Source of the DNA: Parcubacteria group bacterium
GTDB lineage: Bacteria > Patescibacteriota > Minisyncoccia > 2-02-FULL-40-12
Direction: 5' to 3'
DNA: 64,000 nucleotides
Assembly (NCBI GenBank): GCA_016186395.1
Contig: JACPLU010000003.1
Location: 148,022-212,021 of the forward strand
This document shows, piece by piece, positions 1 to 55,119 of this stretch. Numbering within the stretch: the first letter of the stretch is position 1; each line of letters starts with the position of its first letter. The position numbers were made by a program, and so were the translations under genes. The notes below the pieces were generated by a model, which saw nothing but the letters and a program-made list of their open reading frames with translations, was not told the DNA's origin and searched no databases.

Positions 1-82
1 AATCTAGTTGTTGATATTGAAATTCCACGGGTACAATCTACATCAAATACATGTTTTTGTTAAGTGTTTTTATCTGAGCTTA

Positions 83-278
83 GTGAATAATACTCTTTCT
101 CTTTCTTCGCAAACCCCAGCGTGGTTTACTCAGGGGTTGAGCCCTTCGCTCTTTCTCTGTCTGGACTAGTAAATCCAGACAGAGAAAACCATGCCCGTCC
201 CGATTTCTGCTCCGCAGAATCGAGGATCCTCGATAGCATCGGGACTACGGGCTCAAAACCCGTTCAAGAGTATTATTC
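83..278 (+). mobile_element. MITE-like element copy 1. It has 16-bp TIRs (GGTGAATAATACTCTT / AAGAGTATTATTCACC family) and two central hairpins.
   Basis: The conserved left arm (TCTCTTTCTTCGCAAACCCCAGCGTGGTTTACTCAGGGGTTGAGCCCTTCGCTC) and right arm (GGGCTCAAAACCCGTTCAAGAGTATTATTC) match those of four other copies in the window. The central hairpin is ctctgtctgga...tccagacagag. Confidence 0.75.
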
Positions 279-287
279 CGTTAAGAG

Positions 288-1948: not shown

Positions 1949-3523
1949 TTAGTTTACAGAGTCGGGATCAATCCCGCTCTTTTTGTTTAAAATCGCAAGG
2001 TTTAAAGTAACCATTGAGGTAAACATCAAGAAAGAGCGTTCATCAGTTAATGCGGCGTCAGTGAGACTGTAAAGTAAAACCCAAACGTAAGAAATTAAGA
2101 AATAAAAATGGGTACTCGTTTGTATAGAATTTTTTAGTTTCTGCGTCTGTTTTAAATAAGTATAGATTTTTCTAAATATTAACCAAAAAAGCCACATAAA
2201 AAGTAAACCGCCTATGATTCCAATTTCAGCTAAAAAATTTAAATAAAGGTTATGAGCTGAAGAACCAGCCTTAGCAAGTTCGATCTTTTGATTTAAAACA
2301 ACCGGAAAATTCCCTATTCCGACACCCAATAAGGGGTGTTTTTTAATTGATTCAAGTGTGGCTTTCCAGATTAAAATTCGACCGCTGTTTGAAAGTTCGG
2401 ACGCATCTAAAAGAGATTTAATTCTTGTGTTAATAAGATCAAGTCCGCCGTGAACCTTAAATTGGGCCGTTGAAAAAATAAAATAAGTTAAACCGAAAGC
2501 AATCAAAAAGATTATAATTAATTTCCCGCCTAATTTTGCGTATTCTTTATACCCTTTTACCCAATAGTAAATCGTTAAGAGGATTGGCCCCAAAAATGCA
2601 AGCCAAATGCCACGGGTACCGGTGAGGACTATAGCTAGTAGGAATACGAAACATAAAACTTGAAACATTAAACTTGAAACATGGGACACAGAATTTTTTA
2701 TGGTATTTTTTATGTAAAACAAACCCGGAAGGGTCATAATTAGAAACATTGGGAAGCTATGAGAATCTGGAAATGATGAAAACATTCTTAAAACTAGTTT
2801 CTCGCCAAAATACGCGAACCAAGTGTTTGCATTCAATGCCGTTTTTCCCCATTCAAAACCATATAAGTTAGTGTCTATTTTTAAAGCCCAAAACTTTAAA
2901 AAACTATCCGGATCCATAAAATAAGTCATACCTAACTGGATAAAACCGATCATAACTGCAATAGCCCCGGCTATTAAAGACACCTTTAAAATTTTTTCAT
3001 AAAACAACTTTCCCCTTTTTACTTCAAAGTAAATTACTGTGGGTATGATTAAAATATTAGCGAAGTAAATTATTCTTTTTATAGCTGCAAATTTGTCTGG
3101 AGCAACAAAAACAGAAAGTACACAAATGATAAATAGTAGAATTATTAGGGAAGAGATTTTGTGTTCTCTAAAGAATAAAACGGGTTTTTTAAAGACTAGA
3201 ACTAGTTGATTAAAGAAATTTAATATTATATATCTTTGGAAAAACCATTTTAAAAAGATTAAACCGGCTATAATACGCCATATATTAAAGTTGTCAAAGT
3301 TTGGGGTTATGGGTAAGGCGATAAATAACGGAATGGATTGAATAAAAAGGGTTATTAGGTTGCCAAAGTGGTGTTTAAAAATGAAAATAACCCAGAATAA
3401 AAGCAACAAAAAAGCCCAGTGGCGATCAAGTATGCCAAGGGCGACAAGGGGTACTATAATGAGTTCAATCAAAAAAATGGTCTTGGAACTAATATATCTA
3501 AGCATTTGATTTTCCACATGCAC
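1949..3523 (-). CDS. O-antigen ligase / polymerase-like polytopic membrane protein (Wzy_C-like)
   Basis: It has many transmembrane helices and a motif resembling the Wzy_C periplasmic loop (TGTRGIWLAFLGPILL). It sits inside a glycosyltransferase cluster. Confidence 0.55.
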   Translation of the reverse strand: MHVENQMLRYISSKTIFLIELIIVPLVALGILDRHWAFLLLLFWVIFIFKHHFGNLITLFIQSIPLFIALPITPNFDNFNIWRIIAGLIFLKWFFQRYIILNFFNQLVLVFKKPVLFFREHKISSLIILLFIICVLSVFVAPDKFAAIKRIIYFANILIIPTVIYFEVKRGKLFYEKILKVSLIAGAIAVMIGFIQLGMTYFMDPDSFLKFWALKIDTNLYGFEWGKTALNANTWFAYFGEKLVLRMFSSFPDSHSFPMFLIMTLPGLFYIKNTIKNSVSHVSSLMFQVLCFVFLLAIVLTGTRGIWLAFLGPILLTIYYWVKGYKEYAKLGGKLIIIFLIAFGLTYFIFSTAQFKVHGGLDLINTRIKSLLDASELSNSGRILIWKATLESIKKHPLLGVGIGNFPVVLNQKIELAKAGSSAHNLYLNFLAEIGIIGGLLFMWLFWLIFRKIYTYLKQTQKLKNSIQTSTHFYFLISYVWVLLYSLTDAALTDERSFLMFTSMVTLNLAILNKKSGIDPDSVN

Positions 3524-6234: not shown

Positions 6235-7389
6235 TTAAATTTTAGATTCGATAAAATCTAAAATTTGCTTTTTAAATCTTTCTTCTGAAAACTTTTCTGC
6301 ATGTTTTTTTAGCACAAGCGGGCTGTAGTAGCCTGTTTTTATTTTTTCATAGATTCTTCTGGCCCCATCCGCCAAAACTATTGGATTGGGATCATCAAAA
6401 AATTCACCGGTTACTCCTTCAATTATACTTTCTTTTGCTCCTCCACGGCGTAATGCTAATATCGGTTTACCATGACTCATAGATTCAACAGGCGTTATGC
6501 CAAAATCTTCTTCTTGGGGCATAACAAATGCGATTGAGTTTTGATACAAGGTTTGTAATTCTTGGTCATTTACAAAACCGGTAAAAAAGATATTTTTTGC
6601 ATCCAATCTTTTAGTCAAGCTTTTTAAAGAAGTTTTTTCTGGTCCCCGGCCAACAATAATCAACGGCCATTGAAGTTTGGCAAATGCTCGTATAGCAATA
6701 TCAATATTTTTATGTTTAAAAAGCTGGGAAACAATGAGAAAATAATCGGAAGAAACCCTTGAATCTTGAACCTTAAATCTTGGATCACTTTGGTCATGAT
6801 TCATGTTCCATGTTTCATGGTTTATGTTTACCGGAGGATAAATTACAGTGGTTTCTTGCCGGTAGTATTTCCTAATCCTTTGAGCGACATTTTTGGAGTT
6901 AGCTATAAAATAGTCAACCCTTGCGGAGGCAGCCTTATCCCAAATTCTAGCAAAGTGTTGGAACAAAGTTACGCCGACATATTTTAGTGGTCCTCTTTTT
7001 TTAAACTCTTGGTTGTATTCTGATGACCAATCCCAGAGCCAACGGGTTGGACTGTGGCAATAACAAATATGGCGCGTATGGGGTTTTAAAATAACTCCTT
7101 TGCTAAATGCGATGTTAGAAGAAATGACTAAATCATATGAATCAAATCTGAAAGCTTCGGCGGCCAAGGGCATTAAAAATGGTAAGTAAGGGTAGATTTT
7201 TAAAATAAATGGTATTTTTTGAAGAATTGAGGGAACTATTTTTGCATTAGGCAAATATTTTTTAGTGAATTCTTTCGAATAAACCAGGGTATATATGGGT
7301 GCTTCGGGGAAAATTTTATGTAAGGCAATGATAACGCGCTCGGCGCCGCCAAGATTTAAAAGCCAGTCATGTATTAGTGCTACTTTCAA
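6235..7389 (-). CDS. Glycosyltransferase family 1 (GT4-like), carrying an in-frame CATG-element insertion; apparent TTG start
   Basis: MKVALIHDWLLNLGGAERV is a GT4 N-terminus. The segment HETWNMNHDQSDPRFKVQDSR parallels the insert in the neighbouring GT2 gene. Confidence 0.8.
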   Translation of the reverse strand: MKVALIHDWLLNLGGAERVIIALHKIFPEAPIYTLVYSKEFTKKYLPNAKIVPSILQKIPFILKIYPYLPFLMPLAAEAFRFDSYDLVISSNIAFSKGVILKPHTRHICYCHSPTRWLWDWSSEYNQEFKKRGPLKYVGVTLFQHFARIWDKAASARVDYFIANSKNVAQRIRKYYRQETTVIYPPVNINHETWNMNHDQSDPRFKVQDSRVSSDYFLIVSQLFKHKNIDIAIRAFAKLQWPLIIVGRGPEKTSLKSLTKRLDAKNIFFTGFVNDQELQTLYQNSIAFVMPQEEDFGITPVESMSHGKPILALRRGGAKESIIEGVTGEFFDDPNPIVLADGARRIYEKIKTGYYSPLVLKKHAEKFSEERFKKQILDFIESKI

Positions 7390-7473
7390 AACTCAAAATT
7401 TAAAAGTTGGAAGTCAAAATTTTTATTTTTGACTTGAATTTTTGAATTTTACTTTTTGCCTTTTGATTTAATT

Positions 7474-8481: not shown

Positions 8482-8849
8482 GTAGGAAAGTTAAAATTTA
8501 AAATGCAAAATTCAAAATTTAAAACTTGGAATTTACATAGTAAATTTTATCCGTACTTTTGCTTTTTACTTTTTGCCGCCTTTGGTCCAGCCTCGCCTCT
8601 CGCTTACGGCGGGGCTAGTCTTAGACGGCCGGCGGGAGTTTTAATTTATCAATCTAGCAGTTTATTATAAACCTCTCAAGTCCAGCACCACTTTTTTGAA
8701 AAAAGTGGTGCTGGGCAAGCCCCGCACCCCCGCCTGCCGGACGGGCAGGGAGTCCAGCACTGGTTTTCTGTACCCCCATACCTTTTGTTTTACAAAATGT
8801 GTGGGACTGTTCTGGATCTGGTGACGGGGACAAACAAACTAGTTTGGTA

Positions 8850-9003
8850 AAAATAATACTCTTGAACGGGTTTTGAGCCCGTAGCGGGCATGGTTTATCC
8901 CGCCCCAGTTTATTTAAATAAACTGGGGCGGGATAAGAGCGAAGGGCTCAACCTCTGAGCAAACCACGCTGGGGTTTGCGAAGGAAGAGAAAGAGTGTTA
9001 TTT
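8850..9003 (-). mobile_element. MITE-like element copy 2 (reverse orientation)
   Basis: It is the reverse complement of the conserved arms. Its central hairpin (cccgccccagtttatttaaataaactggggcggg) is nearly identical to that of copy 3. Confidence 0.75.
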
Positions 9004-9059
9004 ACCAAACCAACAGACTGATTCTAGCCAAAGACAAAGTTTTATGGTAGTATGAAAAA

Positions 9060-10088
9060 ATGCATAGAATTTCAAGAAGAATAATTTTTTGGATAGCAGT
9101 AGTATTATTTTTATTTGGGAGCTATACGATTATTAAATATGCTCAAGGTTACAGATTTGAAATTCAGGAAATGAGTTTTATAAAAACCGGGGCAATTTTA
9201 CTAAAGACTTTTCCTAAAAAAAGTGAAGTTTTTATTAATCAAAAATTTGTTGATACAACCTCATTAATCAGTGGAGAGTTTACAAAACGTTTTTTGTTGC
9301 CGGATACATACAGTGTTGAGATTAAAAAGAGTGGAAAACAATTATGGCGTAAACAAATTCAGGTTAAAGCGTCAGAAGTGTCTCAATTTTTAAGTATTTA
9401 TTTACCTCCAGAATCTTTAGATTTTAAAAAATCAGATTCGACTGAAGAATATCTGACGAAATCCGTTTCTTTAAACTTTATCACGGAAAGATATTCATTC
9501 AACTCTAGAGATAGAAGGATATATCATTTAAAGGAAAATGGTCAATTAGAAGATATTGAATTGGATGTCCAAAAGGTTATAGATTTTTCAGCGTTACCAT
9601 TTTCTTCTCAATATAGATTTTGGGAGGTTGGTTTTGGTAAGAACAATTTAACCTTTGTTATTTCAAAAGTATCTGCGAAATCAGAAAGTGGTGTCTTGTT
9701 TGTGTTGGAAAATGGTGTGTGGAAACTAATAAATGGTAATGTAAGATCGGTATTTTTATCTAGAGATCAAAAGAAAATTGCAATACTTGGTAAAAATGAA
9801 ATTCTAATTTATTGGTTTGAGGACGAGTTGATACCACCAAATTACTATAAAGGTCAGTTAGAGTTAATAGTTAGGAGATCAGATTCGGTTTCAAAACTTT
9901 TTTGGTTTGATGATGAACATTTACTTTTTCTGTCTGGAGGGAATGTTTTACTTACGGAGGTTGATACAAGGGGTACTAGAAATACCTACGAGTTAGCAAA
10001 AGGGGTAGATGATTTTTTTTACGATCGAGATGGTAACTTGTTAGTTATCAAAAAAGACGGCGAAACATTAATGACTAATTTTGATTAA
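9060..10088 (+). CDS. Hypothetical membrane-anchored protein (342 aa)
   Basis: It has an N-terminal transmembrane helix and no recognisable catalytic motif. Confidence 0.4.
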   Translation: MHRISRRIIFWIAVVLFLFGSYTIIKYAQGYRFEIQEMSFIKTGAILLKTFPKKSEVFINQKFVDTTSLISGEFTKRFLLPDTYSVEIKKSGKQLWRKQIQVKASEVSQFLSIYLPPESLDFKKSDSTEEYLTKSVSLNFITERYSFNSRDRRIYHLKENGQLEDIELDVQKVIDFSALPFSSQYRFWEVGFGKNNLTFVISKVSAKSESGVLFVLENGVWKLINGNVRSVFLSRDQKKIAILGKNEILIYWFEDELIPPNYYKGQLELIVRRSDSVSKLFWFDDEHLLFLSGGNVLLTEVDTRGTRNTYELAKGVDDFFYDRDGNLLVIKKDGETLMTNFD

Positions 10089-10162
10089 TCTAAATACTAT
10101 ACGGGACTGCATCGGGTTCGTTATTTGTTAGACTAAACAGCTTAGAAAGATCCTGTTACTTT

Positions 10163-10720
10163 CTATCGTTTACTCCATTGCGGTGCCCTTCTTGCTTTTT
10201 TGAGGCCATATTTGCGTCTTTCTTTTTCTCTTGGGTCACGAGTTAAAAGTCCGGCTTTTCTAAGCTTCTTTTTATAGTTTTGATCAAATTCTACCAGAGT
10301 TCTAGCTAAGCCATGTTTAATTGCTGCTGCTTGGCCGCTTAGTCCACCTCCATTGACCATCGCTTTTGCTTTAAATCTATTTAATGATTTGAGTTTCTTT
10401 AAAGGTTCTTCAACTATTAATTGAAGTTCTTTATTTGAAAAATAACTTTGATACGGTTTATTGTTGACTTCAATTAAACCTTGATTTTCTGGTATCTCGT
10501 CAGTTGCTTTTTTGGTATAGAGACGAACTCTGGCGGTGGATTCTTTTCTTCTGCCAATTGCTTCAAAATACCTTTCTTTTTCTTTGGTGTCATCCAGTTC
10601 GACCGTTTCGAGTTCTTCAGGCGAATCAATAACTTCAGTTATATCTTTGTTTGGTTTGCTTTCTGTTTTGAGTTTAGTCTTTTTTGTTTCTTTTTTAGTT
10701 GTTGGTTTTTTTACTGTCAT
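10163..10720 (-). CDS. rpsI: 30S ribosomal protein S9 with a lysine-rich N-terminal extension of about 55 aa
   Basis: The C-terminus (GGGLSGQAAAIKHGLARTL...KARRAPQWSKR) is the S9 signature. Confidence 0.9.
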   Translation of the reverse strand: MTVKKPTTKKETKKTKLKTESKPNKDITEVIDSPEELETVELDDTKEKERYFEAIGRRKESTARVRLYTKKATDEIPENQGLIEVNNKPYQSYFSNKELQLIVEEPLKKLKSLNRFKAKAMVNGGGLSGQAAAIKHGLARTLVEFDQNYKKKLRKAGLLTRDPREKERRKYGLKKARRAPQWSKR

Positions 10721-11063
10721 TTTTATAAATTTCTAAGTTTTTAATAATTTTTGACCTAAGTCTGTTTTTAGGCAACATGGCTAAAACTGTTTGTTTAACT
10801 AATTTTCTTGAGTCCTTTTTTACGACTTTCTCTAGACTTTCTGCCTTAATTCCACCTGGGTATCCAGTGTATCTGTAGTAGATTTTATTTTTTAGTTTTT
10901 TACCAGTAAATTTTAGTTTATCAGTGTTAACAACTATTACTTTTGTTTGAGGTAGTATATTGTATTCAAAAGAAGGTTTATTTTTGTCGCGTAAAAGTAT
11001 AGCAATTTGAGTTGCTAATCTTCCTAATACTTGATTTGTGGCATCTATTTTAACTTCGGTCAT
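10695..11063 (-). CDS. rplM: 50S ribosomal protein L13
   Basis: GRLATQIAILLRDKNKPSF...YYRYTGYPGGIK matches L13. The ATG at 11063 is preferred over the TTG start in the ORF track. Confidence 0.85.
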   Translation of the reverse strand: MTEVKIDATNQVLGRLATQIAILLRDKNKPSFEYNILPQTKVIVVNTDKLKFTGKKLKNKIYYRYTGYPGGIKAESLEKVVKKDSRKLVKQTVLAMLPKNRLRSKIIKNLEIYKNDSKKTNN

Positions 11064-11165
11064 GCGCGATACCAATATACTAACGCATACTAATTATACT
11101 CATAAGATTCGTCGCGTCAGACGCGATTCGTATCATTAGTATCAATTCGTATATTTGAATCGAAT
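11064..11165. repeat. Alpha-operon intergenic structured repeat, copy a
   Basis: It shares about 95 nt with copies b and c: GATACCAATATACTAA(C/T)(G/A)CATACTAATTATACTCATAAGATTCGTCGCGTCAGACGCGATTCGTATCATTAGTATCAATTCGTATATTTG. Confidence 0.8.
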
Positions 11166-11513
11166 TCAGATAAATTCTATTTTTGCCATTTTTGCTCCAT
11201 CACTTAATCTCGGAGGCAGTTTGTGGATTCTTGTATACCCACCACCGCGCTCTTTATATCTGGGGGCAATTTGGTTTATTAACTTTTGTGTTATTGGTTC
11301 GGTGAGAGATTTTCTTAGTAATCTTATTTTTGATAGAGACCCATTTCGGGCATGAGTTATTAATTTTTCAATTTTTGGTCTCATTGCTTTAATCTTTGTT
11401 TCGGTACTAATTATGCTTTCACTGAGTATAAATGAAGAAATAAGGCTTTTCATTAGAGCTTTTCTTTGGGGTTTTATCCTGCCAAATTTCTTTTGTTTTC
11501 TCTGCTTACGCAA
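11166..11513 (-). CDS. rplQ: 50S ribosomal protein L17 (TTG start)
   Basis: MRKQRKQKKFGRIKPQRKALMKSL and the C-terminus GGGYTRI are L17 signatures. Confidence 0.9.
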   Translation of the reverse strand: MRKQRKQKKFGRIKPQRKALMKSLISSFILSESIISTETKIKAMRPKIEKLITHARNGSLSKIRLLRKSLTEPITQKLINQIAPRYKERGGGYTRIHKLPPRLSDGAKMAKIEFI

Positions 11514-11615
11514 ATGCGCGATACCAATATACTAATACATACTAATTATACTCATAAGATTCGTCGCGTCAGACGCGATTCGTATCATTAGTATCAATTC
11601 GTATATTTGAATCGG
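11514..11615. repeat. Alpha-operon intergenic structured repeat, copy b
   Basis: Nearly identical to copy a. It fills the entire rpoA-rplQ gap. Confidence 0.8.
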
Positions 11616-12386
11616 TTATCGTTTCTTTGTAACTCTCTTTTTCTTCACTACTTTTTCTTTCGGTATTTTTTGAATTAAATCTTGTTTTTCCAGTTCTTCA
11701 ATACTTTCTTTTGATCCGCGAATGATTTCGAAATGTTGAACAAGTAAATCCCCCGCTTTTTTAAGTGCTACTTCTGGTGAAACACTTCCGTCTGTCTCAA
11801 CTTCCAGTATTAATTTATTAAAATCAGTTCTTTGTCCAACACGGATGGTATCTACTTTGCAGTTTACGTGTTTACAAGGGCTAAAAATTGAATCAAGAGC
11901 GATGCTTCCGATTGGAACTTTTTCTTTTTGATGCATTTCGGATGGTACAAAACCCATTCCTTTTTGAACATCCAACTCAATATTAAATTCAGCCTTTTTA
12001 TCTGTTAGGTTAGCTATGTGTTGATTTTTATTGACGATTTCAACATCAGCTGTGGTTTGAATATCGCCTGCAGTCACCTTTCTTTTACCCGTGGCTTCAA
12101 GTTTTAGAGTCACTGGTTCTTGACCGTAAAATTTGAAACGAACCATTTTTAGGTTTAATACTATGTCTACAACATCTTCCAGGACATAAGGTATGGTTGT
12201 GAATTCGTGGGTTGCACTTTTGATCCTAATCATAGTTATAGCTGCACCTTCAATGGATGAGATTAAAATGCGGCGAAGGGCATTTCCAACTGTTACCCCA
12301 TACCCCGGAGATAAGGGCGCTATTTCAAAAATTGTTTTATTTCCTTCTTTTTGTATGATTTTTGGTTCGGCTGGAAGTATAATCAA
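11616..12386 (-). CDS. rpoA: DNA-directed RNA polymerase alpha subunit, N-terminal domain only (256 aa; TTG start)
   Basis: GYGVTVGNALRRILISSIEGAAI is the alpha-NTD motif. The protein ends in a lysine-rich tail, and no alpha-CTD helix-hairpin-helix segment is present. Confidence 0.85.
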   Translation of the reverse strand: MIILPAEPKIIQKEGNKTIFEIAPLSPGYGVTVGNALRRILISSIEGAAITMIRIKSATHEFTTIPYVLEDVVDIVLNLKMVRFKFYGQEPVTLKLEATGKRKVTAGDIQTTADVEIVNKNQHIANLTDKKAEFNIELDVQKGMGFVPSEMHQKEKVPIGSIALDSIFSPCKHVNCKVDTIRVGQRTDFNKLILEVETDGSVSPEVALKKAGDLLVQHFEIIRGSKESIEELEKQDLIQKIPKEKVVKKKRVTKKR

Positions 12387-12389
12387 AAA

Positions 12390-12490
12390 ATAGTGATACC
12401 AATATACTAATGCATACTAATTATACTTATAAGATTCGTCGCGTCAGACGCGGTTCGTATCATTAGTATCAATTCGTATATTTGCATCGG
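12390..12490. repeat. Alpha-operon intergenic structured repeat, copy c
   Basis: It matches copies a and b with a few substitutions. It fills the rpsD-rpoA gap. Confidence 0.8.
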
Positions 12491-13126
12491 TTACCTTGAG
12501 TAATATTCAATGATCATTTGTAAATCTCTTGGATCAATACCGGAGTCTTCTGATAATGGAGACTCATCAATTTTACATATTAGATTATTTTTGTCAAGTT
12601 TTATCCACTTTGGCGGATCGTATTTTTTAATACTGGTTGGGAGTATAGAGGAAAAATATTTATTATTTTTTTTGTCGTTCTTTATGGAAATTGTATCGCC
12701 TGTTTTTGTTTGAAATGATGGAATTGATATTTTTTTGTTGTTTACCATTATATGTCCGTGACTTACCAATTGTCTTGCTAAATCACGAGCATCCGCGAAA
12801 CCGCACCTAAAAACAATATTATCTAATCTTGTTTCAAGAAGTTTGACTAAAACATCTCCACTATTAAGTTTACTTTCAATTGCTTCTTTTACATAATTTT
12901 TAAATTGTTTTTCAAGAATTTTATAAATATGTTTTATTTTTTGCTTTGCTGAAAGCTGGGCTCCAAATTCCGAAAACCGACGTATTCCTTTCGGGCCATG
13001 CATTCCCGGAGGGTAAGGTTTTTTAACCATGGCTGCTTTTGGAGAGTATGAACGCTCACCCTTTAAAAAGAGTTTTTGTCCAATTCTTCTTTCTAATTTT
13101 TCTTTTGGTCCTGTGTAGCGAGCCAT
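12491..13126 (-). CDS. rpsD: 30S ribosomal protein S4
   Basis: MARYTGPKEKLERRIGQKLFLKGERS is the S4 N-terminus, and an S4 RNA-binding domain follows. Confidence 0.9.
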   Translation of the reverse strand: MARYTGPKEKLERRIGQKLFLKGERSYSPKAAMVKKPYPPGMHGPKGIRRFSEFGAQLSAKQKIKHIYKILEKQFKNYVKEAIESKLNSGDVLVKLLETRLDNIVFRCGFADARDLARQLVSHGHIMVNNKKISIPSFQTKTGDTISIKNDKKNNKYFSSILPTSIKKYDPPKWIKLDKNNLICKIDESPLSEDSGIDPRDLQMIIEYYSR

Positions 13127-13332
13127 GCGAATTATGTCTACAAGCGTAGCGCGTAGCTACAGAATTCAGCACCCAGCTCCACTTTTACCATTTCAACATA
13201 AGCTTACTACTATAAAGACTACATAAGGCTATTTAGCCCGGCAATTTAAAGCTTTAAATTGCCGTTATTCAAATAGTAAAAGTGGGGCTGGGTAACTTTT
13301 TGTAGCTCCTCGACAAGCTCGGAGACAAAAAA

Positions 13333-13776
13333 TTATACCCTTCTTGGTTTTGCTGGTTTGCATCCATTATGTGGTATTGGTGTTGCGTCTATAATCGCGT
13401 TTAATTCTATTCCGGCTGATGCTATTCCTCGAATTGCGGCATCTCTTCCTGGTCCAACGCCTTTTACATAAACAGTAACCTCGGCAAGTCCGAAAGATTT
13501 TGCTTTTTCTGCGGCTATTCTTGCGGCCGTTGTTGCTGCGTAAGGCGTAGATTTTCTTGTTCCTGAAAAACCGGTGTTACCAGAAGAAGCCCAAGTGATG
13601 GTTCCTCCCTGGGTGTCGGTAATAGTAATAATTGTGTTGTTATAGGAAGCATGAATATATACTGTTCCTTTAAAAACTTTTCTTTTTGATGATTTTTTTT
13701 GCAACCGAATACCCTCTCCGTTTGCTCCGGAGTTATTGCTTTCACCTGGTTTTGCAATAATACGTTTTTTGCCCAT
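13333..13776 (-). CDS. rpsK: 30S ribosomal protein S11
   Basis: GTVYIHASYNNTIITITD...AAEKAKSFGL...VYVKGVGPGRDAAIRG matches S11. Confidence 0.9.
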   Translation of the reverse strand: MGKKRIIAKPGESNNSGANGEGIRLQKKSSKRKVFKGTVYIHASYNNTIITITDTQGGTITWASSGNTGFSGTRKSTPYAATTAARIAAEKAKSFGLAEVTVYVKGVGPGRDAAIRGIASAGIELNAIIDATPIPHNGCKPAKPRRV

Positions 13777-14162
13777 TAGGTTGGTGATGTTGCTGGTCGT
13801 CTTCCAGAGCCCATAGTTTTTCTAAGGTTACCTCTTAGAGTTCTAGAGTTAGTTTTAGTTCTGCCACGAATTGGAAGTTTTCTAGCATGGCGGGACCCTC
13901 TCCATGAGCCAGCATCTTTTAATCTTCTAATATTATCTGCAATCTGTCTTCGTAGGTTTCCTTCTATTGGGTAACTCTTTTCTATGATATTTTGGATCTT
14001 ATTAATTTCCTCGGACGTTAAATCTTTGGCCCTTCGGTTCAAAGGTATATTTGCTGATAGTAGTATTTTTTTACTCAAAGTTAAACCAACTCCATAAATA
14101 TAGGTCAGTGAGGTCTGAATATTTTTATTTTCTGGAATATTTATTCCTGCTATACGCGGCAA
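13776..14162 (-). CDS. rpsM: 30S ribosomal protein S13 (TTG start)
   Basis: PRIAGINIPENK...YGVGLTLSKKIL matches S13. Confidence 0.9.
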   Translation of the reverse strand: MPRIAGINIPENKNIQTSLTYIYGVGLTLSKKILLSANIPLNRRAKDLTSEEINKIQNIIEKSYPIEGNLRRQIADNIRRLKDAGSWRGSRHARKLPIRGRTKTNSRTLRGNLRKTMGSGRRPATSPT

Positions 14163-14235
14163 AATAAAATTAAAATTTAAAAATCAGAGGTCAAAATTAA
14201 TTTTGCTTTTTGATTTTTGAATTATGCATTACTTT

Positions 14236-14349
14236 TTAGCCTTGTCTTTGTTTGTGCTTTTTATTTTCACATATACAATAAAGTCGTCCTTTTCTACGCA
14301 CGATTTTGCACTTATTGCATATTTTTTTAACTGATGCACGTACTTTCAC
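14236..14349 (-). CDS. rpmJ: 50S ribosomal protein L36 (37 aa, GTG start); missed by the 60-aa ORF cutoff
   Basis: Manual minus-strand translation gives (M)[36 protein letters not shown]. This is the canonical L36 zinc-ribbon sequence, in the expected position between infA and rpsM. Confidence 0.75.
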
Positions 14350-14488
14350 CCCCACACCATAACAAGGATAAATATCTTACAGAATTAACTTCAGTATTAT
14401 ATGCATTTCCGTGTTATGGAAAGTTATCCCCCTACAATTCAAATTTTGGACTAAATCCTTGTTTGGTGTGGGGGTTCATTCTTAAAAC

Positions 14489-14695
14489 TTATAGTCTTCT
14501 TATAATTCTTCCTCTTTTTCCGTCCGGACCCAACTCTACTTGAACTTTATCTCCAGGGATAACCCGGATATAATTTAAACGCATTTTGCCAGCCAAATGG
14601 GCTAATATCTCCCTACCGTCGTCAAGCCGTACGTTAAAAGTCGTATCAGGCAGACTTTCTATGATTTGTCCTTGTAAAATTTGTTTTTGGTTCAC
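14489..14695 (-). CDS. infA: Translation initiation factor IF-1
   Basis: S1-like fold: GQIIESLPDTTFNVRLDDGREILAHLAGKMRLNYIRVIPGDKV. Confidence 0.85.
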   Translation of the reverse strand: MNQKQILQGQIIESLPDTTFNVRLDDGREILAHLAGKMRLNYIRVIPGDKVQVELGPDGKRGRIIRRL

Positions 14696-14780
14696 AAAAA
14701 TACTCTTCAGCTTAGATATTTATTGGCAAAAAGATATTAACAAAAAATGTTATTCCAGTCAATTGGATTGAGTATAACTT

Positions 14781-16514
14781 TTAAGGATTTACTACTTCTA
14801 CTGATATTTTTGATCTATTTTGGGGAATAGAGTGTTTCCAAAATGGGGAAATCAATATTTTCACTTTTTCAATATCCGGGTAGTTTTTAAAGTAAGAGCC
14901 TATTTGTGCTTCATTAAATCCGCTAATTTCTTTGGTAATTTTTTGTGTATCTACATCTGTTACGGCTTCAAGTTCTGCATTGAGGTCAAAAGAAAAAGTT
15001 TTGTTCTGTGTGTCGAGTTTTTTTGCGATTATTTTGTATTTTAGGCTAGAAGGAATGAATTTTTTGAGTGTACCTTTCTTAGATAAATAGGTATTAATTA
15101 TTTTTTCAATATCTTTTTCCAGCAAACTCATGGCCCATATTTTACCAGATAGTTCTATTGTAAACTTTTCTCCTATGGTGTTCTCGACGGAGCTTTTTTC
15201 TGTTGGGCTGATAGAAATTTCCTCGGCGCCGTAACTATTTATCATTCCTTCTCCTTTTATTTTTGCCATTTCTTTCACTAAGTCTTCTTTTATCTGTTGG
15301 GTTAACTCATTTGTTATTTTATCTATATCTTCTTTGGTGGCAAATTTTGTTTTTCCTTTGAAACCATTTTTCATATCTGACTCGGATTCCGCCGAGAATT
15401 TATCATATTTTGATGTGCCAATAAATCCCGGTATTGTAAATTTTGTTGGAGCAATGTTGTATTCTACTCCAGTTTTGTCTGCTATAACGTCAGTTTTTAT
15501 ACTCCCTGGTATTAACGTTCCGTTTTCAAGCTGGGCGCCGGGAACAGTTACTGTTTTTGTGATTCTAAAAATTAAACCTTCTTTAGTCTGGAATCTTGTT
15601 GTGGCTACTAGTGTTTGGGGGGCCGAGGAAAAGGCGTTGTAAATAATAATAGAACCAGTTGATTTTTGCTCTAGAAATTTATCGCCGGTAGAATTAACAG
15701 TTTTACTTAATGTTTTTTGTACTTCTATTAATTTACCTAATAATTCTGTTTCATTTTTAGGATTTTCAGAGGCAACCAAAGCTATATTTATGGTTGCTTT
15801 TTCTTTTTGGGGAGTGATCGTTATTTTTGCTTTTTGATTACTATTAAGTACCGCAAATATAATAACAATAATAAAGACAGATAAAATAGCGTATAAGATT
15901 TTCTTTGAAAATCTTATGGTTTGTGGACTAATGCTTTTTTGTTTTGAGGGTCTGATAATTTCTTTTATTGGTCTTTGTGCTTCCGAGAGTATGTTTTTGG
16001 GATTATAAAGTTTTTCTAATTCTTCTTCTGCTCTGTAATATTTGATTGGAAAAGTAATCTCGTTATTTTGGAGATTTATTTTTTCTGTCGGAGTATCTGT
16101 TAAAATTTCAGGTTGATCTATATTAATGGGAATTTCCGTTTTCTTTTCTGGCACATCCTGAACTTCTAAGGTTTCTATCTCATCGGCCTTTGGGGATACT
16201 ATTTCTCTGACCGGCGTTTTGTGCATGCCTTTTTGTTTCTCTTGGGTTTGGGAACTCTTTTTATGCTCTTCTAAAACCCTAAATCCAGTTTCAGTTGCTT
16301 TAGCTATAATTCTCTGGTCGCTTGTTATAATTGTTATTGTTTTTTTAAGCTTGTTGGCTCTTTCTGATAATAATCCGATCGTTTCTAAATCAAGAAAAAC
16401 CTTATGAGATTTAGGTACAACGAAAAAGAACTCGCTAGCCTCGGAGTTGTCTATTATTTCAACTAAGTCATCTACTTTGTCGTCCTGCTCAATATTAATA
16501 ATTTTTGGAGCCAT
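14781..16514 (-). CDS. Hypothetical single-pass membrane protein (577 aa) with a cytoplasmic N-terminal domain and a large extracytoplasmic C-terminal region
   Basis: One transmembrane helix (ILYAILSVFIIVIIFAVL). No confident family assignment. Confidence 0.4.
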   Translation of the reverse strand: MAPKIINIEQDDKVDDLVEIIDNSEASEFFFVVPKSHKVFLDLETIGLLSERANKLKKTITIITSDQRIIAKATETGFRVLEEHKKSSQTQEKQKGMHKTPVREIVSPKADEIETLEVQDVPEKKTEIPINIDQPEILTDTPTEKINLQNNEITFPIKYYRAEEELEKLYNPKNILSEAQRPIKEIIRPSKQKSISPQTIRFSKKILYAILSVFIIVIIFAVLNSNQKAKITITPQKEKATINIALVASENPKNETELLGKLIEVQKTLSKTVNSTGDKFLEQKSTGSIIIYNAFSSAPQTLVATTRFQTKEGLIFRITKTVTVPGAQLENGTLIPGSIKTDVIADKTGVEYNIAPTKFTIPGFIGTSKYDKFSAESESDMKNGFKGKTKFATKEDIDKITNELTQQIKEDLVKEMAKIKGEGMINSYGAEEISISPTEKSSVENTIGEKFTIELSGKIWAMSLLEKDIEKIINTYLSKKGTLKKFIPSSLKYKIIAKKLDTQNKTFSFDLNAELEAVTDVDTQKITKEISGFNEAQIGSYFKNYPDIEKVKILISPFWKHSIPQNRSKISVEVVNP

Positions 16515-16756
16515 TCCCAGTGCTACAATCTCGACACGTCGTCAAGCCATTTAAGAAATGAGAAAATAACGTGCCAAAATTTATATTTTTAACTTTTGTC
16601 CCAGTGATACAGTACAACTTTCAGAAAATGCAGTCGAAATTGTAGCACTGGGCATTAAATATATTATAATTCAAAGTTATTTTATTTTCCATCACCTTTC
16701 ACATCTTTTTAAGATATCCTCTTTTTTGAATCAGGTTATTTTAGTATTATATTGAT

Positions 16757-17056
16757 ATGAGTAATGAGATTTTTTCTGGCAATCTTACTGGTTTTACTTT
16801 TTTCATTTTGATTATTTTGGTTGGTATTGGTGTTGCTGTTATTCCTCCATCTACTCCGCCAGAATTACCTAGCGAGGAACCGGGTATTCCAGTACCAACT
16901 TCTTCAAGTGTGCCTTCTTTTGAACCTTCTCCTACAACCCCAATCTCTTTCTGGCAGAAAGACTATATTTATTTTTTGGGAGATGCGATTGCTACAGTAA
17001 ATGTGGCCAGCAAAAGTCAGGAAAGTTTGTCACCCGCTCCTACACCATCACAATGA
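16757..17056 (+). CDS. Small proline-rich membrane protein (99 aa), first gene of the toxin locus
   Basis: It has an N-terminal transmembrane helix followed by a Pro/Ser/Thr-rich region. Its stop overlaps the next start. Confidence 0.35.
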   Translation: MSNEIFSGNLTGFTFFILIILVGIGVAVIPPSTPPELPSEEPGIPVPTSSSVPSFEPSPTTPISFWQKDYIYFLGDAIATVNVASKSQESLSPAPTPSQ

Positions 17057-17820
17057 AATTTAGTAGTAGAATAGCTTTATTTATAATTTTATTTTGTTCG
17101 CCGTTTTTTGTTTATGCAAAATCTTATGAGCTTAAACTTTTTGTTAGAGAAGATGGGGGCATTGTTTTTGACAGAGACTTTCAGCCGGCAATTAAGTTAG
17201 TTGAAGTTAATTTAAATTCGGCCGTTAGTCAGAGTGATTTTTATGTTGAACTGGTTAGTATCCAAGCTAAAACCCCGATTCTAATTTTACCTATTAATGT
17301 GCCGAATTTAGGTAAATTCGTTTTGAACTTACCATTTATTCCGGATGTCGGCAGTATAGAAATAAAAAAACAGCCCGAAGCTCAAGTTCTTTTTTCAACA
17401 AACGTCTCGTCTCTGGCGGTGTGTAATCTCAATGGCAAATGCGAATCAAATTTAAAGGAAAATAAGGATAATTGCTATGCTGATTGTTTGCTTGAGGGTT
17501 ATGTTGCGCCTGACGGGGCGATTGACTCTTCTCTTATAAAAGGATGCTATTCTAAGTTTACCTGTATCGAGTTTTATAAGAGTCCTTATTCTATTGTTGG
17601 TGGAGTTTTAATTTTATTGGGCGTGGCTGGTTTAGTTTTTATAATTAAAAGAAGAAAAAACAGGTCATTCAATCAGTTTCAGATAAGTGAAGGGCTTCCT
17701 TCCAGTATTCCTAGCGAGCCTCCAGCTTTTAAAAATGGGCAGGGAGAACAGATTTTAAATAATCGAAGTTCTCAAATAGATAAAACTTCACCAGTAGATA
17801 CTAATCCGCCCCAGGTATGA
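17053..17820 (+). CDS. Secreted cysteine-containing protein with a C-terminal transmembrane anchor (255 aa)
   Basis: It has a signal peptide, eight spaced cysteines, a transmembrane helix (GVLILLGVAGLVFII) and a basic stop-transfer segment. Its stop lies 3 nt before the giant ORF. Confidence 0.4.
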   Translation: MKFSSRIALFIILFCSPFFVYAKSYELKLFVREDGGIVFDRDFQPAIKLVEVNLNSAVSQSDFYVELVSIQAKTPILILPINVPNLGKFVLNLPFIPDVGSIEIKKQPEAQVLFSTNVSSLAVCNLNGKCESNLKENKDNCYADCLLEGYVAPDGAIDSSLIKGCYSKFTCIEFYKSPYSIVGGVLILLGVAGLVFIIKRRKNRSFNQFQISEGLPSSIPSEPPAFKNGQGEQILNNRSSQIDKTSPVDTNPPQV

Positions 17821-17823
17821 TTT

Positions 17824-32647: not shown

Positions 32648-32784
32648 TACTCTTTCTCTTTCTTCGCAAACCCCAGCGTGATTTGCTCAGGGGTTGAGCC
32701 CTTCGCTCTTCCCAAGCTCTTTCTAAAGAGCTTGGAAAACCATGCCCGCTACGGGCTCAAAACCCGTTCAAGAGTATTATTCAC
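32639..32784 (+). mobile_element. MITE-like element copy 4
   Basis: Perfect 16-bp TIRs (GGTGAATAATACTCTT / AAGAGTATTATTCACC). The central hairpin is ccaagctctttctaaagagcttgg. Confidence 0.8.
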
Positions 32785-32986
32785 CAAGTTAAAAGATTTA
32801 ATCGTTTAGTTTGAAAATAATTTAAATACATGTTACGGTGTGGGGATGAATCCCGTAGTGAAAATTCGAATAGATTTACATATGCTAAGTCACTATGGGG
32901 TTTAAGAGATACAATATAAAAGGAGTTTGGATAGTGTTATATAGATTCTAAAAATCATAAAGCATTATTCGAATTTCTACTACGGG

Positions 32987-54957: not shown

Positions 54958-54964
54958 TTAACAA

Positions 54965-55114
54965 GGTGAATAATACTCTTTCTCTTTCTTCGCAAACCCC
55001 AACGTGGTTTGCTCAGGGATTGAGCCCTTCGCTCTTCCACCATCTGATTTAAAACCAGATGGTGAAAACCATGCCCACTACGGGCTCAAAACCCGTTCAA
55101 AAGTATTATTCACC
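54965..55114 (+). mobile_element. MITE-like element copy 5, inserted between znuC-like and znuB-like genes of the same operon
   Basis: Perfect TIRs GGTGAATAATACTCTT / AAAAGTATTATTCACC. The central hairpin is caccatctgatttaaaaccagatggtg. Confidence 0.8.
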
Positions 55115-55119
55115 AAACT

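What the first reader, a model, noticed from the sequence alone, without database searches (positions are those of the whole stretch)
11064..12490. A ~100-nt structured repeat fills three consecutive intergenic gaps inside the ribosomal alpha operon
Seen in the sequence: near-identical copies lie at 11064-11165, 11514-11615 and 12390-12490. They occupy the complete rpsD-rpoA, rpoA-rplQ and rplQ-rplM spacers on the transcribed strand.
- Each copy contains nested inverted repeats: TACTAAT...ATTAGTA, the CGCGTC-AGA-CGCG palindrome, and termini CCAATATAC.../...GTATATTTG.
- Each is followed directly by a TTG start codon with no Shine-Dalgarno sequence.

These spacers are usually short in bacteria. 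The operon is known to be autoregulated by S4 and L17-type mechanisms and processed by RNases.

Inference: the element could be a mobile intergenic element that specifically colonises this operon, an RNase III or RNase E processing cassette, or a translation-initiation structure substituting for an SD sequence.
Basis: seen in the sequence. Interest (0 to 1): 0.65.

Follow-up and report, generated by a model that had tools for sequence, protein, structure and literature searches.

The report
Palindromic repeat invading ribosomal operon spacers
A 96-base hairpin-forming repeat sits in three neighbouring gene gaps of a ribosomal-protein/RNA-polymerase operon in one uncultured Parcubacteria genome and is absent from its closest relatives, so it looks like a recently spread small insertion element rather than a conserved regulatory RNA: real, but fairly ordinary.

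Summary
Three copies of a 96-nt unit (2-5 differences) fill the rpsD|rpoA, rpoA|rplQ and rplQ|rplM spacers, in the gene orientation (minus strand). Nothing like them occurs elsewhere in the 64 kb. An independent assembly of the same strain reaches 34 nt into copy 1.

- **Anatomy:** each unit has 14-nt imperfect terminal inverted repeats (CGATWCMAATATAC), an 8-bp inner arm pair and a 23-nt GC hairpin core. It folds as one imperfect hairpin of about 32 bp (about -26 kcal/mol).
- **Not ancestral:** a sister lineage with 92-96% identical coding DNA lacks it. There rpoA and rplQ overlap by 4 nt. In four more distant relatives the rpoA|rplQ and rplQ|rplM spacers are 1-32 nt.
- **Not a known RNA:** there is no Rfam match and no covariation, because the copies are too alike. 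No full-length homologue was found in any collection searched.
- **"No Shine-Dalgarno" is the norm here:** 50 of 62 ORFs lack an SD-like motif. rplM starts with ATG, not TTG.

Best reading: a lineage-specific, MITE-like palindromic insertion that spread locally and is tolerated inside the operon. MITE membership is not proven, because there is no target-site duplication and no transposase, and the rest of the genome was not seen. Relatives carry unrelated palindromic repeats in the same operon, which is mildly interesting.

The parts
11067..11162 (-). Copy 1: the 96-nt unit between terminal inverted repeats, in the rplQ|rplM spacer (spacer 11064-11165).
   Evidence: The junction with rplM is confirmed in an independent assembly.
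11519..11614 (-). Copy 2: the 96-nt unit in the rpoA|rplQ spacer (spacer 11514-11615). It differs from copy 1 at 2 positions.
   Evidence: In the sister lineage rpoA and rplQ overlap by 4 nt at this position.
12394..12489 (-). Copy 3: the 96-nt unit in the rpsD|rpoA spacer (spacer 12387-12490). It differs from copies 1 and 2 at 5 positions each and has a different 3' flank.
11108..11130 (-). 23-nt GC hairpin core, CGAATCGCGTCTGACGCGACGAA. It is a 6-bp stem, with an AA bulge below it and further closing pairs. The same core lies at 11560-11582 and, with one mismatch, at 12435-12457.
   Evidence: The exact 22-23-mer also occurs in four unrelated low-GC contigs.
11093..11120 (-). Promoter-like site CTGACG-16 nt-TATAAT (10 of 12 matches). 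The same site lies at 11545-11572 and 12420-12447. The TATAAT ends 29-33 nt before the start codon.
   Evidence: This is a consensus match only. Such sites are not enriched in the region (17 found against 13.3 expected).
11080..11136 (-). 18-codon mini-ORF (MIRIASDATNLMSIISMR*). It is also present at 11532-11588 and 12407-12463. All four substitutions between the copies change the amino acid.
   Evidence: It is probably fortuitous.
12491..13126 (-). rpsD (S4), upstream of copy 3.
11616..12386 (-). rpoA, with a TTG start. It is 256 aa and has N-terminal domains only. It lies between copies 3 and 2.
11166..11513 (-). rplQ (L17), with a TTG start. It lies between copies 2 and 1.
10695..11063 (-). 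rplM (L13), with an ATG start at 11063. It lies downstream of copy 1.

Best explanation
The repeat is a lineage-specific, non-coding palindromic insertion element of the MITE / Correia / ERIC kind. It is 96 nt long, with 14-nt imperfect terminal inverted repeats.

**When it arrived.** It entered this Parcubacteria lineage after the split from a sister lineage whose genes are still 92-96% identical in DNA. It then copied itself, or was copied, into three adjacent and originally very short spacers of the rpsD-rpoA-rplQ-rplM cluster. Removing the unit leaves spacers of 6, 6 and 8 nt.

**What it does (inferred).** It is carried along in the operon transcript, where it can fold into one imperfect hairpin. 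The base of that hairpin lies 1-3 nt after the upstream stop codon and 3-7 nt before the downstream start codon. The two genes therefore stay close in space, and the insertion is tolerated.

**Shown and inferred.**
- Shown: the copies, their ends, their absence from relatives, their hairpin potential and independent assembly support.
- Inferred: the copying mechanism (a transposase acting in trans, or local recombination), co-transcription, and near-neutrality.
For: - **Three copies only.** Units of 96 nt with 2-5 differences occur in three consecutive spacers and nowhere else in the window.
- **Terminal inverted repeats.** They sit exactly at the six ends: 6 matches against 0.05 expected.
- **Presence/absence between relatives.** Homology blocks of 92-96% identity between the window and the sister lineage (L001, L015) stop at the gene ends. 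The element is missing from L001 and L015-L017, and rpoA and rplQ overlap there.
- **Short ancestral spacers.** In L002, L004, L019 and L020, rpoA|rplQ is 2-32 nt and rplQ|rplM is 1-17 nt.
- **Recent spread.** Copy divergence of 2-5% does not exceed the 4-8% divergence of the flanking genes from the sister lineage.
- **The genome hosts such elements.** A second family of about 150 nt, with its own inverted repeats, has 5 dispersed copies in both orientations.
- **Relatives carry unrelated palindromic repeats in the same operon.** The sister lineage has an 84-nt AT-rich pair. L004 has a 183-nt inverted pair.
- **Not a known RNA family.** There is no Rfam match.
- **Consistent fold.** The same long hairpin is predicted for all three copies, with and without flanks.
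- **Assembly behaviour.** Independent assembly contigs of the same strain break inside the repeats.
Against: - There is no target-site duplication of 2 nt or more at any copy.
- No transposase or parent element with these inverted repeats was seen, although only 20 of about 62 ORFs were scanned.
- Only three copies are known. They lie within 1.4 kb and in one orientation, which fits local copying at least as well as transposition.
- Copies 1 and 2 share 5 nt (CGCAT) beyond the 3' inverted repeat. A unit cut at its inverted repeats would not carry these.
- The sister spacers are themselves replaced by other sequence, so no clean empty site exists.
- The rest of the genome could not be read.
Confidence: 0.6

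Rival explanations
1. It is a locally copied spacer, not a transposable element. One spacer sequence was duplicated into its two neighbours by recombination, template switching or gene conversion, and is kept similar by conversion. No transposase is involved and there are no copies elsewhere in the genome.
For: - All three copies lie within 1.4 kb, in one orientation, in consecutive gaps. If 3 copies were dealt at random among the 61 gaps of the window, about 0.16% of deals would be consecutive (my calculation).
- There is no copy elsewhere in the 64 kb.
- No full-length homologue was found in the GTDB representative genomes, JGI metagenomes, IMG/VR, phages or plasmids.
- There is no target-site duplication.
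- Copies 1 and 2 share CGCAT beyond the unit, and copies 2 and 3 share TAAC before it.
- The sister lineage also has one repeat in two consecutive spacers.
Against: - The unit has well-defined 14-nt terminal inverted repeats and the same 96-nt length in all copies, as transposase-defined units do.
- The flanks differ right outside the unit.
- A clearly dispersed MITE-like family lives in the same genome.
- Only about a quarter of the 239-kb contig, and less of the genome, was seen.
Confidence: 0.2
2. It is an internal promoter cassette. Each copy supplies a sigma-70-type promoter (CTGACG, 16 nt, TATAAT), so that rpoA, rplQ and rplM are each transcribed from their own start, about 22-26 nt upstream of the start codon.
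For: - The same 10-of-12 promoter-like site occurs in the sense orientation in each copy.
- The perfect TATAAT ends 29-33 nt before the start codon.
- All copies face the same way as the genes.
- Correia elements are known to create promoters (PMC2649163).
Against: - Promoter-like sites are not enriched in the region: 17 found against 13.3 +/- 3.7 expected.
- TATAAT occurs about once per 1.3 kb per strand in this 36% GC window.
- The three sites are copies of one another, so they count as a single observation.
- Relatives express the same genes without the element.
- The promoter rules of these bacteria are unknown.
Confidence: 0.1
3. It is a functional RNA hairpin within the operon mRNA. It could be an RNase III/E processing or stabilising site that separates the polycistronic transcript. 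Alternatively it could be a structure that keeps termination-reinitiation coupling by holding the stop and start codons together at its base.
For: - An imperfect hairpin of about 32 bp is predicted for all copies and is robust to flanking sequence.
- The stop and start codons lie 1-7 nt from the base of the stem.
- Four consecutive spacers of this operon hold long hairpins, including 13127-13332 with z = -7.06.
- Unrelated hairpin repeats occupy the same operon in two other lineages.
- Correia elements are cleaved by RNase III (PMC2649163, PMC10969869).
Against: - There is no covariation: 0 of 32 pairs change on both sides, and 29 never vary.
- Stability on the transcribed strand is unremarkable for two of the three copies (z = -1.6 and -1.9).
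- The element is absent from close relatives.
- Any insertion with inverted-repeat ends in a very short spacer would show the same geometry without having a function.
Confidence: 0.1
4. It is an assembly artefact of the metagenome-assembled genome.
For: Repeats are a common cause of misassembly. The exact RpoA, S4 and L17 proteins are not on record in the index of public assemblies searched (ENA, JGI, NCBI and Logan).
Against: - An independent contig from SRR12113430 reproduces the rplM-element junction at 100% identity.
- Each copy has its own substitutions and flanks, and every flanking gene is intact.
- The missing proteins are what fragmentation at a repeat would cause.
Confidence: 0.02

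Closest known systems
Correia repeat-enclosed elements (CREE/NEMIS) of Neisseria
   Same: They are non-coding units of roughly 100-150 bp with terminal inverted repeats. They sit next to or between genes and are co-transcribed. They fold as hairpins that RNase III can cleave, and they can create promoters at their ends (PMC2649163, PMC10969869).
   Different: Correia elements occur in hundreds of dispersed copies, duplicate a TA target and carry an IHF site (the copy number and TA duplication are from my own knowledge). Here there are three clustered copies, no duplication and no sequence similarity. Cleavage and promoter activity were not tested.
ERIC / IRU (enterobacterial repetitive intergenic consensus)
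   Same: These are imperfect palindromes of about 127 bp. They lie in transcribed intergenic regions, including inside operons, where the hairpin can alter mRNA stability (from my own knowledge; reviewed in PMC3184786).
   Different: ERIC is conserved across genera and dispersed. This element is confined to one lineage and one operon as far as could be seen, and its sequence is unrelated.
Chunjie MITE of Geobacter uraniireducens
   Same: [quoted passage not shown]
   Different: Chunjie is 178-235 bp, has conserved direct repeats (target duplications) and has dozens of copies. None of this is shown here.
MIRU (mycobacterial interspersed repetitive units)
   Same: These are 46-100-bp repeats that fill spacers between genes of an operon, with ends at the flanking stop and start codons (from my own knowledge: Supply et al. 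1997).
   Different: MIRUs are tandem direct repeats without terminal inverted repeats. Their small ORFs overlap the flanking genes and so allow translational coupling. Here the 18-codon ORF overlaps neither gene, and all its substitutions change the amino acid.
Ribosomal-protein leader and autoregulatory RNAs (Rfam Alpha_RBS RF00140 and other ribosomal-protein leaders)
   Same: They occupy a position in front of ribosomal-protein genes of the alpha cluster.
   Different: There is no match at the three copies, even at E <= 5. The only weak Alpha_RBS match (21.7 bits against a gathering score of 38) lies at the rpsM start, 14130-14199. The element is not conserved in relatives.

Membership tests
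MITE (miniature inverted-repeat transposable element) | Small (about 50-500 bp) and without a transposase gene. | tested here: met
   The unit is 96 nt and holds only an 18-codon ORF with no sign of constraint.
MITE (miniature inverted-repeat transposable element) | Terminal inverted repeats. | tested here: met
   CGATWCMAATATAC sits at both ends of each copy. The two arms agree at 12 of 14 positions (read from the sequences). There are 6 matches against 0.05 expected.
MITE (miniature inverted-repeat transposable element) | Target-site duplication flanking each copy. | tested here: not met
   The flanks are ATT/CGC, C/CGCAT and C/CTATTTT. No direct repeat of 2 nt or more is present.
MITE (miniature inverted-repeat transposable element) | Many copies dispersed over the genome. 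| tested here: inconclusive
   There are three copies, all within 1.4 kb, and none elsewhere in the 64 kb. The rest of the 239-kb contig and of the genome could not be read.
MITE (miniature inverted-repeat transposable element) | A parent insertion sequence or transposase with matching inverted repeats. | tested here: inconclusive
   No other match to the inverted repeats occurs in the window. No transposase was found among the 20 ORFs scanned. This was not tested genome-wide.
MITE (miniature inverted-repeat transposable element) | Presence/absence polymorphism between close relatives. | tested here: met
   The element is absent from L001 and L015-L017, whose coding DNA is 92-96% identical. 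There is no clean empty site, because those spacers hold other sequence.
Rfam ribosomal-protein leader / Alpha_RBS | A match to the family covariance model at the gathering score. | tested here: not met
   No match at the copies at E <= 5. No match in the window at gathering scores.
Conserved structured cis-regulatory RNA (generic) | Conservation in relatives, with compensatory base-pair changes. | tested here: not met
   The element is absent from all relatives examined. Among the three copies, 0 of 32 pairs change on both sides.
REP / BIME (RAYT-associated) | Palindromes of 20-40 nt in many dispersed copies, with an associated RAYT gene. | tested here: inconclusive
   The 23-nt core hairpin resembles a REP in size and recurs in unrelated contigs. 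In this window it occurs only inside the three copies. RAYT genes were not searched for genome-wide.
IS200/IS605-derived palindrome-associated elements | Subterminal hairpins instead of terminal inverted repeats, no duplication, insertion 3' of a fixed tetra- or pentanucleotide, and a strand bias. | tested here: inconclusive
   The lack of a duplication and the single orientation fit. However, the ends are true inverted repeats and the left flanks are not uniform (TAAC, TAAC, AATT). No tnpA or tnpB gene was seen.

The most novel reading that the evidence does not exclude
Hairpin-forming spacer modules may be recruited repeatedly, rather than merely tolerated, in the alpha operon of Parcubacteria.

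- **Independent occupancy.** Three lineages carry four unrelated palindromic repeats in consecutive spacers of the same gene cluster: 96 nt x3 plus a 206-nt hairpin spacer in this window, 84 nt x2 in the sister lineage, and 183 nt x2 in L004.
- **Possible role.** These organisms have few Shine-Dalgarno sites and an RNA polymerase alpha subunit without its C-terminal domain. Such hairpins could therefore act as processing or decoupling punctuation. They could also preserve coupling by holding the stop and start codons together.
- **A shared core.** The 23-nt core hairpin recurs exactly in unrelated CPR-like contigs. It could be a shared protein-binding motif.
Probability: 0.12. Interest if true: 0.6.

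Novelty: new member of a known kind. Interest (0 to 1): 0.33.

Why it matters
If the main reading holds, this is a documented case of small palindromic insertion elements turning over quickly inside a core, highly expressed operon of a reduced CPR genome. All six spacers compared in the cluster differ between two lineages whose genes are 92-96% identical.

- **Literature gap.** Two full-text searches found no paper describing MITE-like or REP-like repeats in CPR/Patescibacteria.
- **Practical consequence.** Such repeats break short-read assemblies exactly at ribosomal-protein genes, which are the markers used for binning and phylogeny.
- **Annotation warning.** Operon-internal structured sequences in these genomes should not be read as regulatory RNAs without comparative support.
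- **Biology.** The tightly coupled rpoA/rplQ junction (ATGA overlap) can be split by 100 nt without loss of the genes.

Tried and rejected
- **Rfam.** Scans of the region at E <= 5 and of the whole window at gathering scores gave nothing at the copies. L001, L004 and L009 gave nothing either.
- **Core-pattern scans.** GTDB representative genomes gave 1 hit, JGI metagenomes 6 and IMG/VR 0. All hits share only the 22-26-nt core. Their flanks are unrelated, and three hits are one high-GC coding gene. No full-length homologue was found.
- **BLAST against phages and plasmids.** No match.
- **Covariance model R1, filters off.** It found no further copy in the window. L009:1132-1231 scored 32 bits (E about 3e-5) as a larger hairpin around the same core with similar geometry. 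Most of that score comes from the core, and many outer pairs are non-standard. I do not count it as a family member.
- **Covariation among the copies.** Uninformative, because 29 of 32 pairs never vary.
- **Mini-ORF as a peptide or coupling device.** Rejected. All four substitutions change the amino acid, and the ORF overlaps neither neighbour.
- **SD substitute.** Rejected. Lack of an SD is the rule in this window and in relatives without the element.
- **Relic of the element in the sister rplQ|rplM spacer.** GTATATTCGTAT there resembles GTATATTGGTAT in the element. A match this short and AT-rich cannot be claimed.
- **Finding the rest of the source genome.** Exact-protein look-ups for RpoA, S4, L17 and P0121 are not on record. 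Only two flanking Logan contigs were obtained.
- **Target-site duplications and shared flanks.** None convincing.
Full report
**1. What is in the sequence**

All genes of the region lie on the minus strand, in this order:
- rpsM 13776-14162
- rpsK 13333-13776
- rpsD 12491-13126
- rpoA 11616-12386
- rplQ 11166-11513
- rplM 10695-11063
- rpsI 10163-10720

The ORFs come and the Pfam assignments S13, S11, S4, RpoA, L17, L13 and S9. The three spacers rpsD|rpoA, rpoA|rplQ and rplQ|rplM are 104, 102 and 102 nt. They hold one repeat in the gene orientation. The repeat finder gives 3 copies of 101 nt at 98% and 92% identity.

The repeat is confined to these spacers:
- A 38-nt probe with up to 3 mismatches hits only these places, against 0 expected.
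- The central palindrome occurs only there.
- A whole-window repeat search and a covariance model run with filters off find no other copy in the 64 kb.

The unit is defined by 14-nt imperfect terminal inverted repeats, CGATWCMAATATAC. These give six matches, exactly at the six ends, against 0.05 expected. The unit measures 96 nt in every copy, and the copies differ at 2, 5 and 5 positions. It starts 1-3 nt after the upstream stop codon and ends 3-7 nt before the downstream start codon. Without it the spacers would be 6, 6 and 8 nt.

On the transcribed strand the unit contains, from outside to inside:
- the terminal arms;
- an 8-bp pair, ATACTAAT/ATTAGTAT;
- an off-centre 23-nt GC hairpin, CGAATCGCGTCTGACGCGACGAA.

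**2. Is it an artefact?**

No. RpoA of the window is 100% identical to MBI2626947.1 of a "Parcubacteria group bacterium" MAG, whose contig is 239,152 nt. Two contigs from an independent Logan assembly of run SRR12113430 are 100% identical to window 13272-23510 and 8973-11097. The second contig runs from a different repeat, through rpsI and rplM, and stops 34 nt inside copy 1. That is what a short-read assembler does at a repeat. Each copy also has its own substitutions and flanks.

**3.

- rplM starts with ATG at 11063. This follows from the alignment with the sister lineage and from the gene call in the independent contig. Only rplQ and rpoA start with TTG, and these starts lie 5 and 7 nt after the unit.
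- "No Shine-Dalgarno" is correct but not special. Only 12 of 62 ORFs in the window have an SD-like motif. The same genes also lack one in relatives without the element.
- "Structured" holds in the sense that all copies give the same long imperfect hairpin of about 32 pairs, at about -26 kcal/mol, with or without flanks. On the transcribed strand, however, the z-scores are only -1.6, -1.9 and -3.7.
- The copies are too alike to test the fold. Of 32 pairs, 29 never vary and none changes on both sides.

**4. Comparative evidence**

The nearest relatives are L001 and L015-L017, whose RpoA is about 93% identical to the window's. Their coding DNA aligns with the window at 92-96% identity. The aligned blocks stop exactly at the gene boundaries, and no spacer aligns.

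| Spacer | Sister lineage (L001, L015-L017) |
|---|---|
| rpoA\|rplQ | genes overlap by 4 nt (ATGA) |
| rplQ\|rplM | 49 nt of unrelated sequence |
| rpsK\|rpsD and rpsD\|rpoA | two copies of a different, 84-nt AT-rich hairpin repeat |
| rplM\|rpsI | 210-nt insert; in the window these two genes overlap |

Four more distant relatives keep the same gene order (RpoA 58-62% identical):

| Locus | rpsD\|rpoA | rpoA\|rplQ | rplQ\|rplM |
|---|---|---|---|
| L002 | 10 nt | 17 nt | 1 nt |
| L004 | 74 nt | 32 nt | 15 nt |
| L019 | 85 nt | 2 nt | 1 nt |
| L020 | 81 nt | 21 nt | 17 nt |

The element is therefore a derived insertion, younger than a split at about 4-8% DNA divergence. This agrees with the 2-5% divergence among the copies. 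For rpoA|rplQ and rplQ|rplM it is met. In rpsD|rpoA the relatives also lack the element, though that spacer is 10-86 nt there.

**5. Searches elsewhere**

- Rfam gave no match at the copies.
- Exact scans with the 21-23-nt core found no full-length relative. GTDB representative genomes gave 1 hit, JGI metagenomes 6 and IMG/VR 0.
- BLAST against phages and plasmids found nothing.
- Two full-text literature searches found no paper describing MITE-like or REP-like repeats in CPR bacteria.

**6. Context**

This genome and its relatives are rich in palindromic intergenic repeats.
- The window holds a second family of about 150 nt, with inverted repeats GAATAATACTCTT/AAGAGTATTATTC. It has five dispersed copies in both orientations.
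- The fourth consecutive spacer of the operon, rpsK|rpsD (13127-13332), is an unrelated 206-nt sequence. It folds as one hairpin at -80.6 kcal/mol, z = -7.06.
- L004 carries a 183-nt repeat as an inverted pair, 97% complementary, upstream of rpsM and in rpsK|rpsD. A single copy folds at -99 kcal/mol.

Three lineages therefore have unrelated hairpin repeats in adjacent spacers of the same cluster.

**7. Interpretation**

The best-supported reading is a lineage-specific, non-autonomous palindromic insertion of the MITE / Correia / ERIC kind. It spread locally and is tolerated inside the operon (confidence 0.6).

I do not file it as a MITE, for these reasons:
- a target-site duplication was looked for and not found;
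- no transposase or parent element was seen;
- only three clustered copies are known;
- copies 1 and 2 share 5 nt beyond the unit.

Local recombinational copying is therefore a serious rival (0.2). If three copies were dealt at random among the 61 gaps of the window, about 0.16% of deals would fall in consecutive gaps (my calculation). The clustering is thus real, whatever its cause.

Functional readings are possible but unsupported:
- **Promoter cassette.** Each copy has CTGACG-16 nt-TATAAT. Such sites are not enriched, TATAAT is common in this 36% GC DNA, and the three sites are one observation copied three times.
- **RNase processing, stabilising or coupling hairpin.** The stop and start codons do lie at the base of the stem. 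However, that is the expected geometry for any insertion with inverted-repeat ends in a 6-8-nt spacer.
- **Mini-ORF.** The 18-codon ORF shows only amino-acid-changing substitutions and is probably fortuitous.

**8. Open oddity**

The exact 22-23-nt core occurs in four unrelated low-GC contigs: L007 (Candidatus Roizmanbacteria), L008, L009 and L013. By my estimate about 0.5 matches are expected by chance in the 596-Gb genome set. The expectation for the metagenome set is probably lower, though its size is not known to me.
- The core folds as a compact hairpin with an AA bulge.
- In L009 it sits in a larger hairpin of similar geometry.
- L008 holds a second variant with a compensatory C-G pair.

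This may be an independent hairpin module.

**9. Verdict**

The finding is real and correctly located. Its "mobile element" reading is the right direction, and its regulatory readings are unsupported. It is a new member of a known kind of sequence. It is of modest interest by itself, and somewhat more so as part of a pattern of rapid spacer turnover in the ribosomal operons of CPR bacteria.

Noticed in passing
window 13127-13332 (minus strand, rpsK|rpsD spacer): This is the fourth consecutive spacer of the operon. It is an unrelated 206-nt sequence that folds as one long hairpin (-80.6 kcal/mol, z = -7.06; none of 200 shuffles folds as well). The independent Logan contig L014 ends inside it, at 13272. 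It has no match elsewhere in the window or in Rfam.
   Followed up: partly
window 66-283, about 8850-9005, 23483-23633, 32648-32787, 54958-55119: A second repeat family of about 150 nt, with inverted repeats GAATAATACTCTT/AAGAGTATTATTC, has five dispersed copies in both orientations. The central hairpin differs between copies. It looks like a classical MITE. Both Logan contigs start inside copies of it.
   Followed up: partly
L004:1971-2153 and L004:3066-3248: In a relative (RpoA 58% identical), a 183-nt repeat occurs as an inverted pair, 97% complementary. One copy lies upstream of rpsM and the other in rpsK|rpsD, so the pair brackets rpsM-rpsK. A single copy folds at -99 kcal/mol. An invertible or recombining segment is conceivable.
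   Followed up: partly
L001:2592-2675 and 3315-3398 (the same in L015-L017); L001:4926-5135: The sister lineage has its own 84-nt AT-rich hairpin repeat of the form (CAAAAT)n/(ATTTTG)n in two consecutive spacers, rpsK|rpsD and rpsD|rpoA. It also has a 210-nt insert between rplM and rpsI, which overlap in the window. Similar AT-rich sequences lie in the window at 7387-7432, 8485-8551 and 14164-14209, directly upstream of start codons.
   Followed up: partly
L007:3280-3300, L008:751-773 and 814-849, L009:1165-1187, L013:437-462: The exact 22-26-nt core hairpin of the element (CGAATCGCGTCTGACGCGACGAA) recurs in unrelated low-GC contigs, one of them from Candidatus Roizmanbacteria. This is more often than I estimate for chance. 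L008 holds a second variant with a compensatory stem pair. In L009 the core sits in a larger hairpin inside a tandem scaffold repeat.
   Followed up: partly
window 11616-12386 (rpoA): RpoA is only 256 aa, with the dimerisation and insert domains (PF01193, PF01000) and no alpha C-terminal domain (PF03118). Most close homologues (240-270 aa) are the same, while a minority of 310-330 aa keep the C-terminal domain.
   Followed up: no
window 14130-14199 (minus strand, start of rpsM): There is a weak, sub-threshold Rfam match to Alpha_RBS (RF00140): 21.7 bits against a gathering score of 38, E = 0.075. It rests mostly on the conserved first codons of rpsM, so it is probably not a real S4 operator.
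   Followed up: no
window, upstream of ORF starts at 9060, 16757, 35376, 44017 and 61845, among others: Only 12 of 62 ORFs have an SD-like motif. Several have an extended -10-like TGnTAnnnT ending 6-8 nt before the start codon, which suggests leaderless mRNAs. The positional peak is weak (7 genes at a distance of 6 nt).
   Followed up: partly
window 11502-11513 compared with L001:4175-4186; window 12491-12508 compared with L001:3298-3315: The codons next to the insertions are unusually diverged from the sister lineage. Six of the first 12 nt of rplQ differ (ATG AGA AAA GAA in the sister against TTG CGT AAG CAG here). Five of the six last positions of rpsD (five sense codons and the stop) carry silent changes. 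Elsewhere the genes are 92-96% identical.
   Followed up: no
L007:4197-4232: A perfect 30-nt palindrome, ATGTACCAATGTATT/AATACATTGGTACAT, lies after an ORF. It resembles the two terminal arms of the element joined without the interior (10 of 12 positions identical to GTATATTGGTAT). It is in the same locus as a core match. The evidence is weak (E about 0.05).
   Followed up: no
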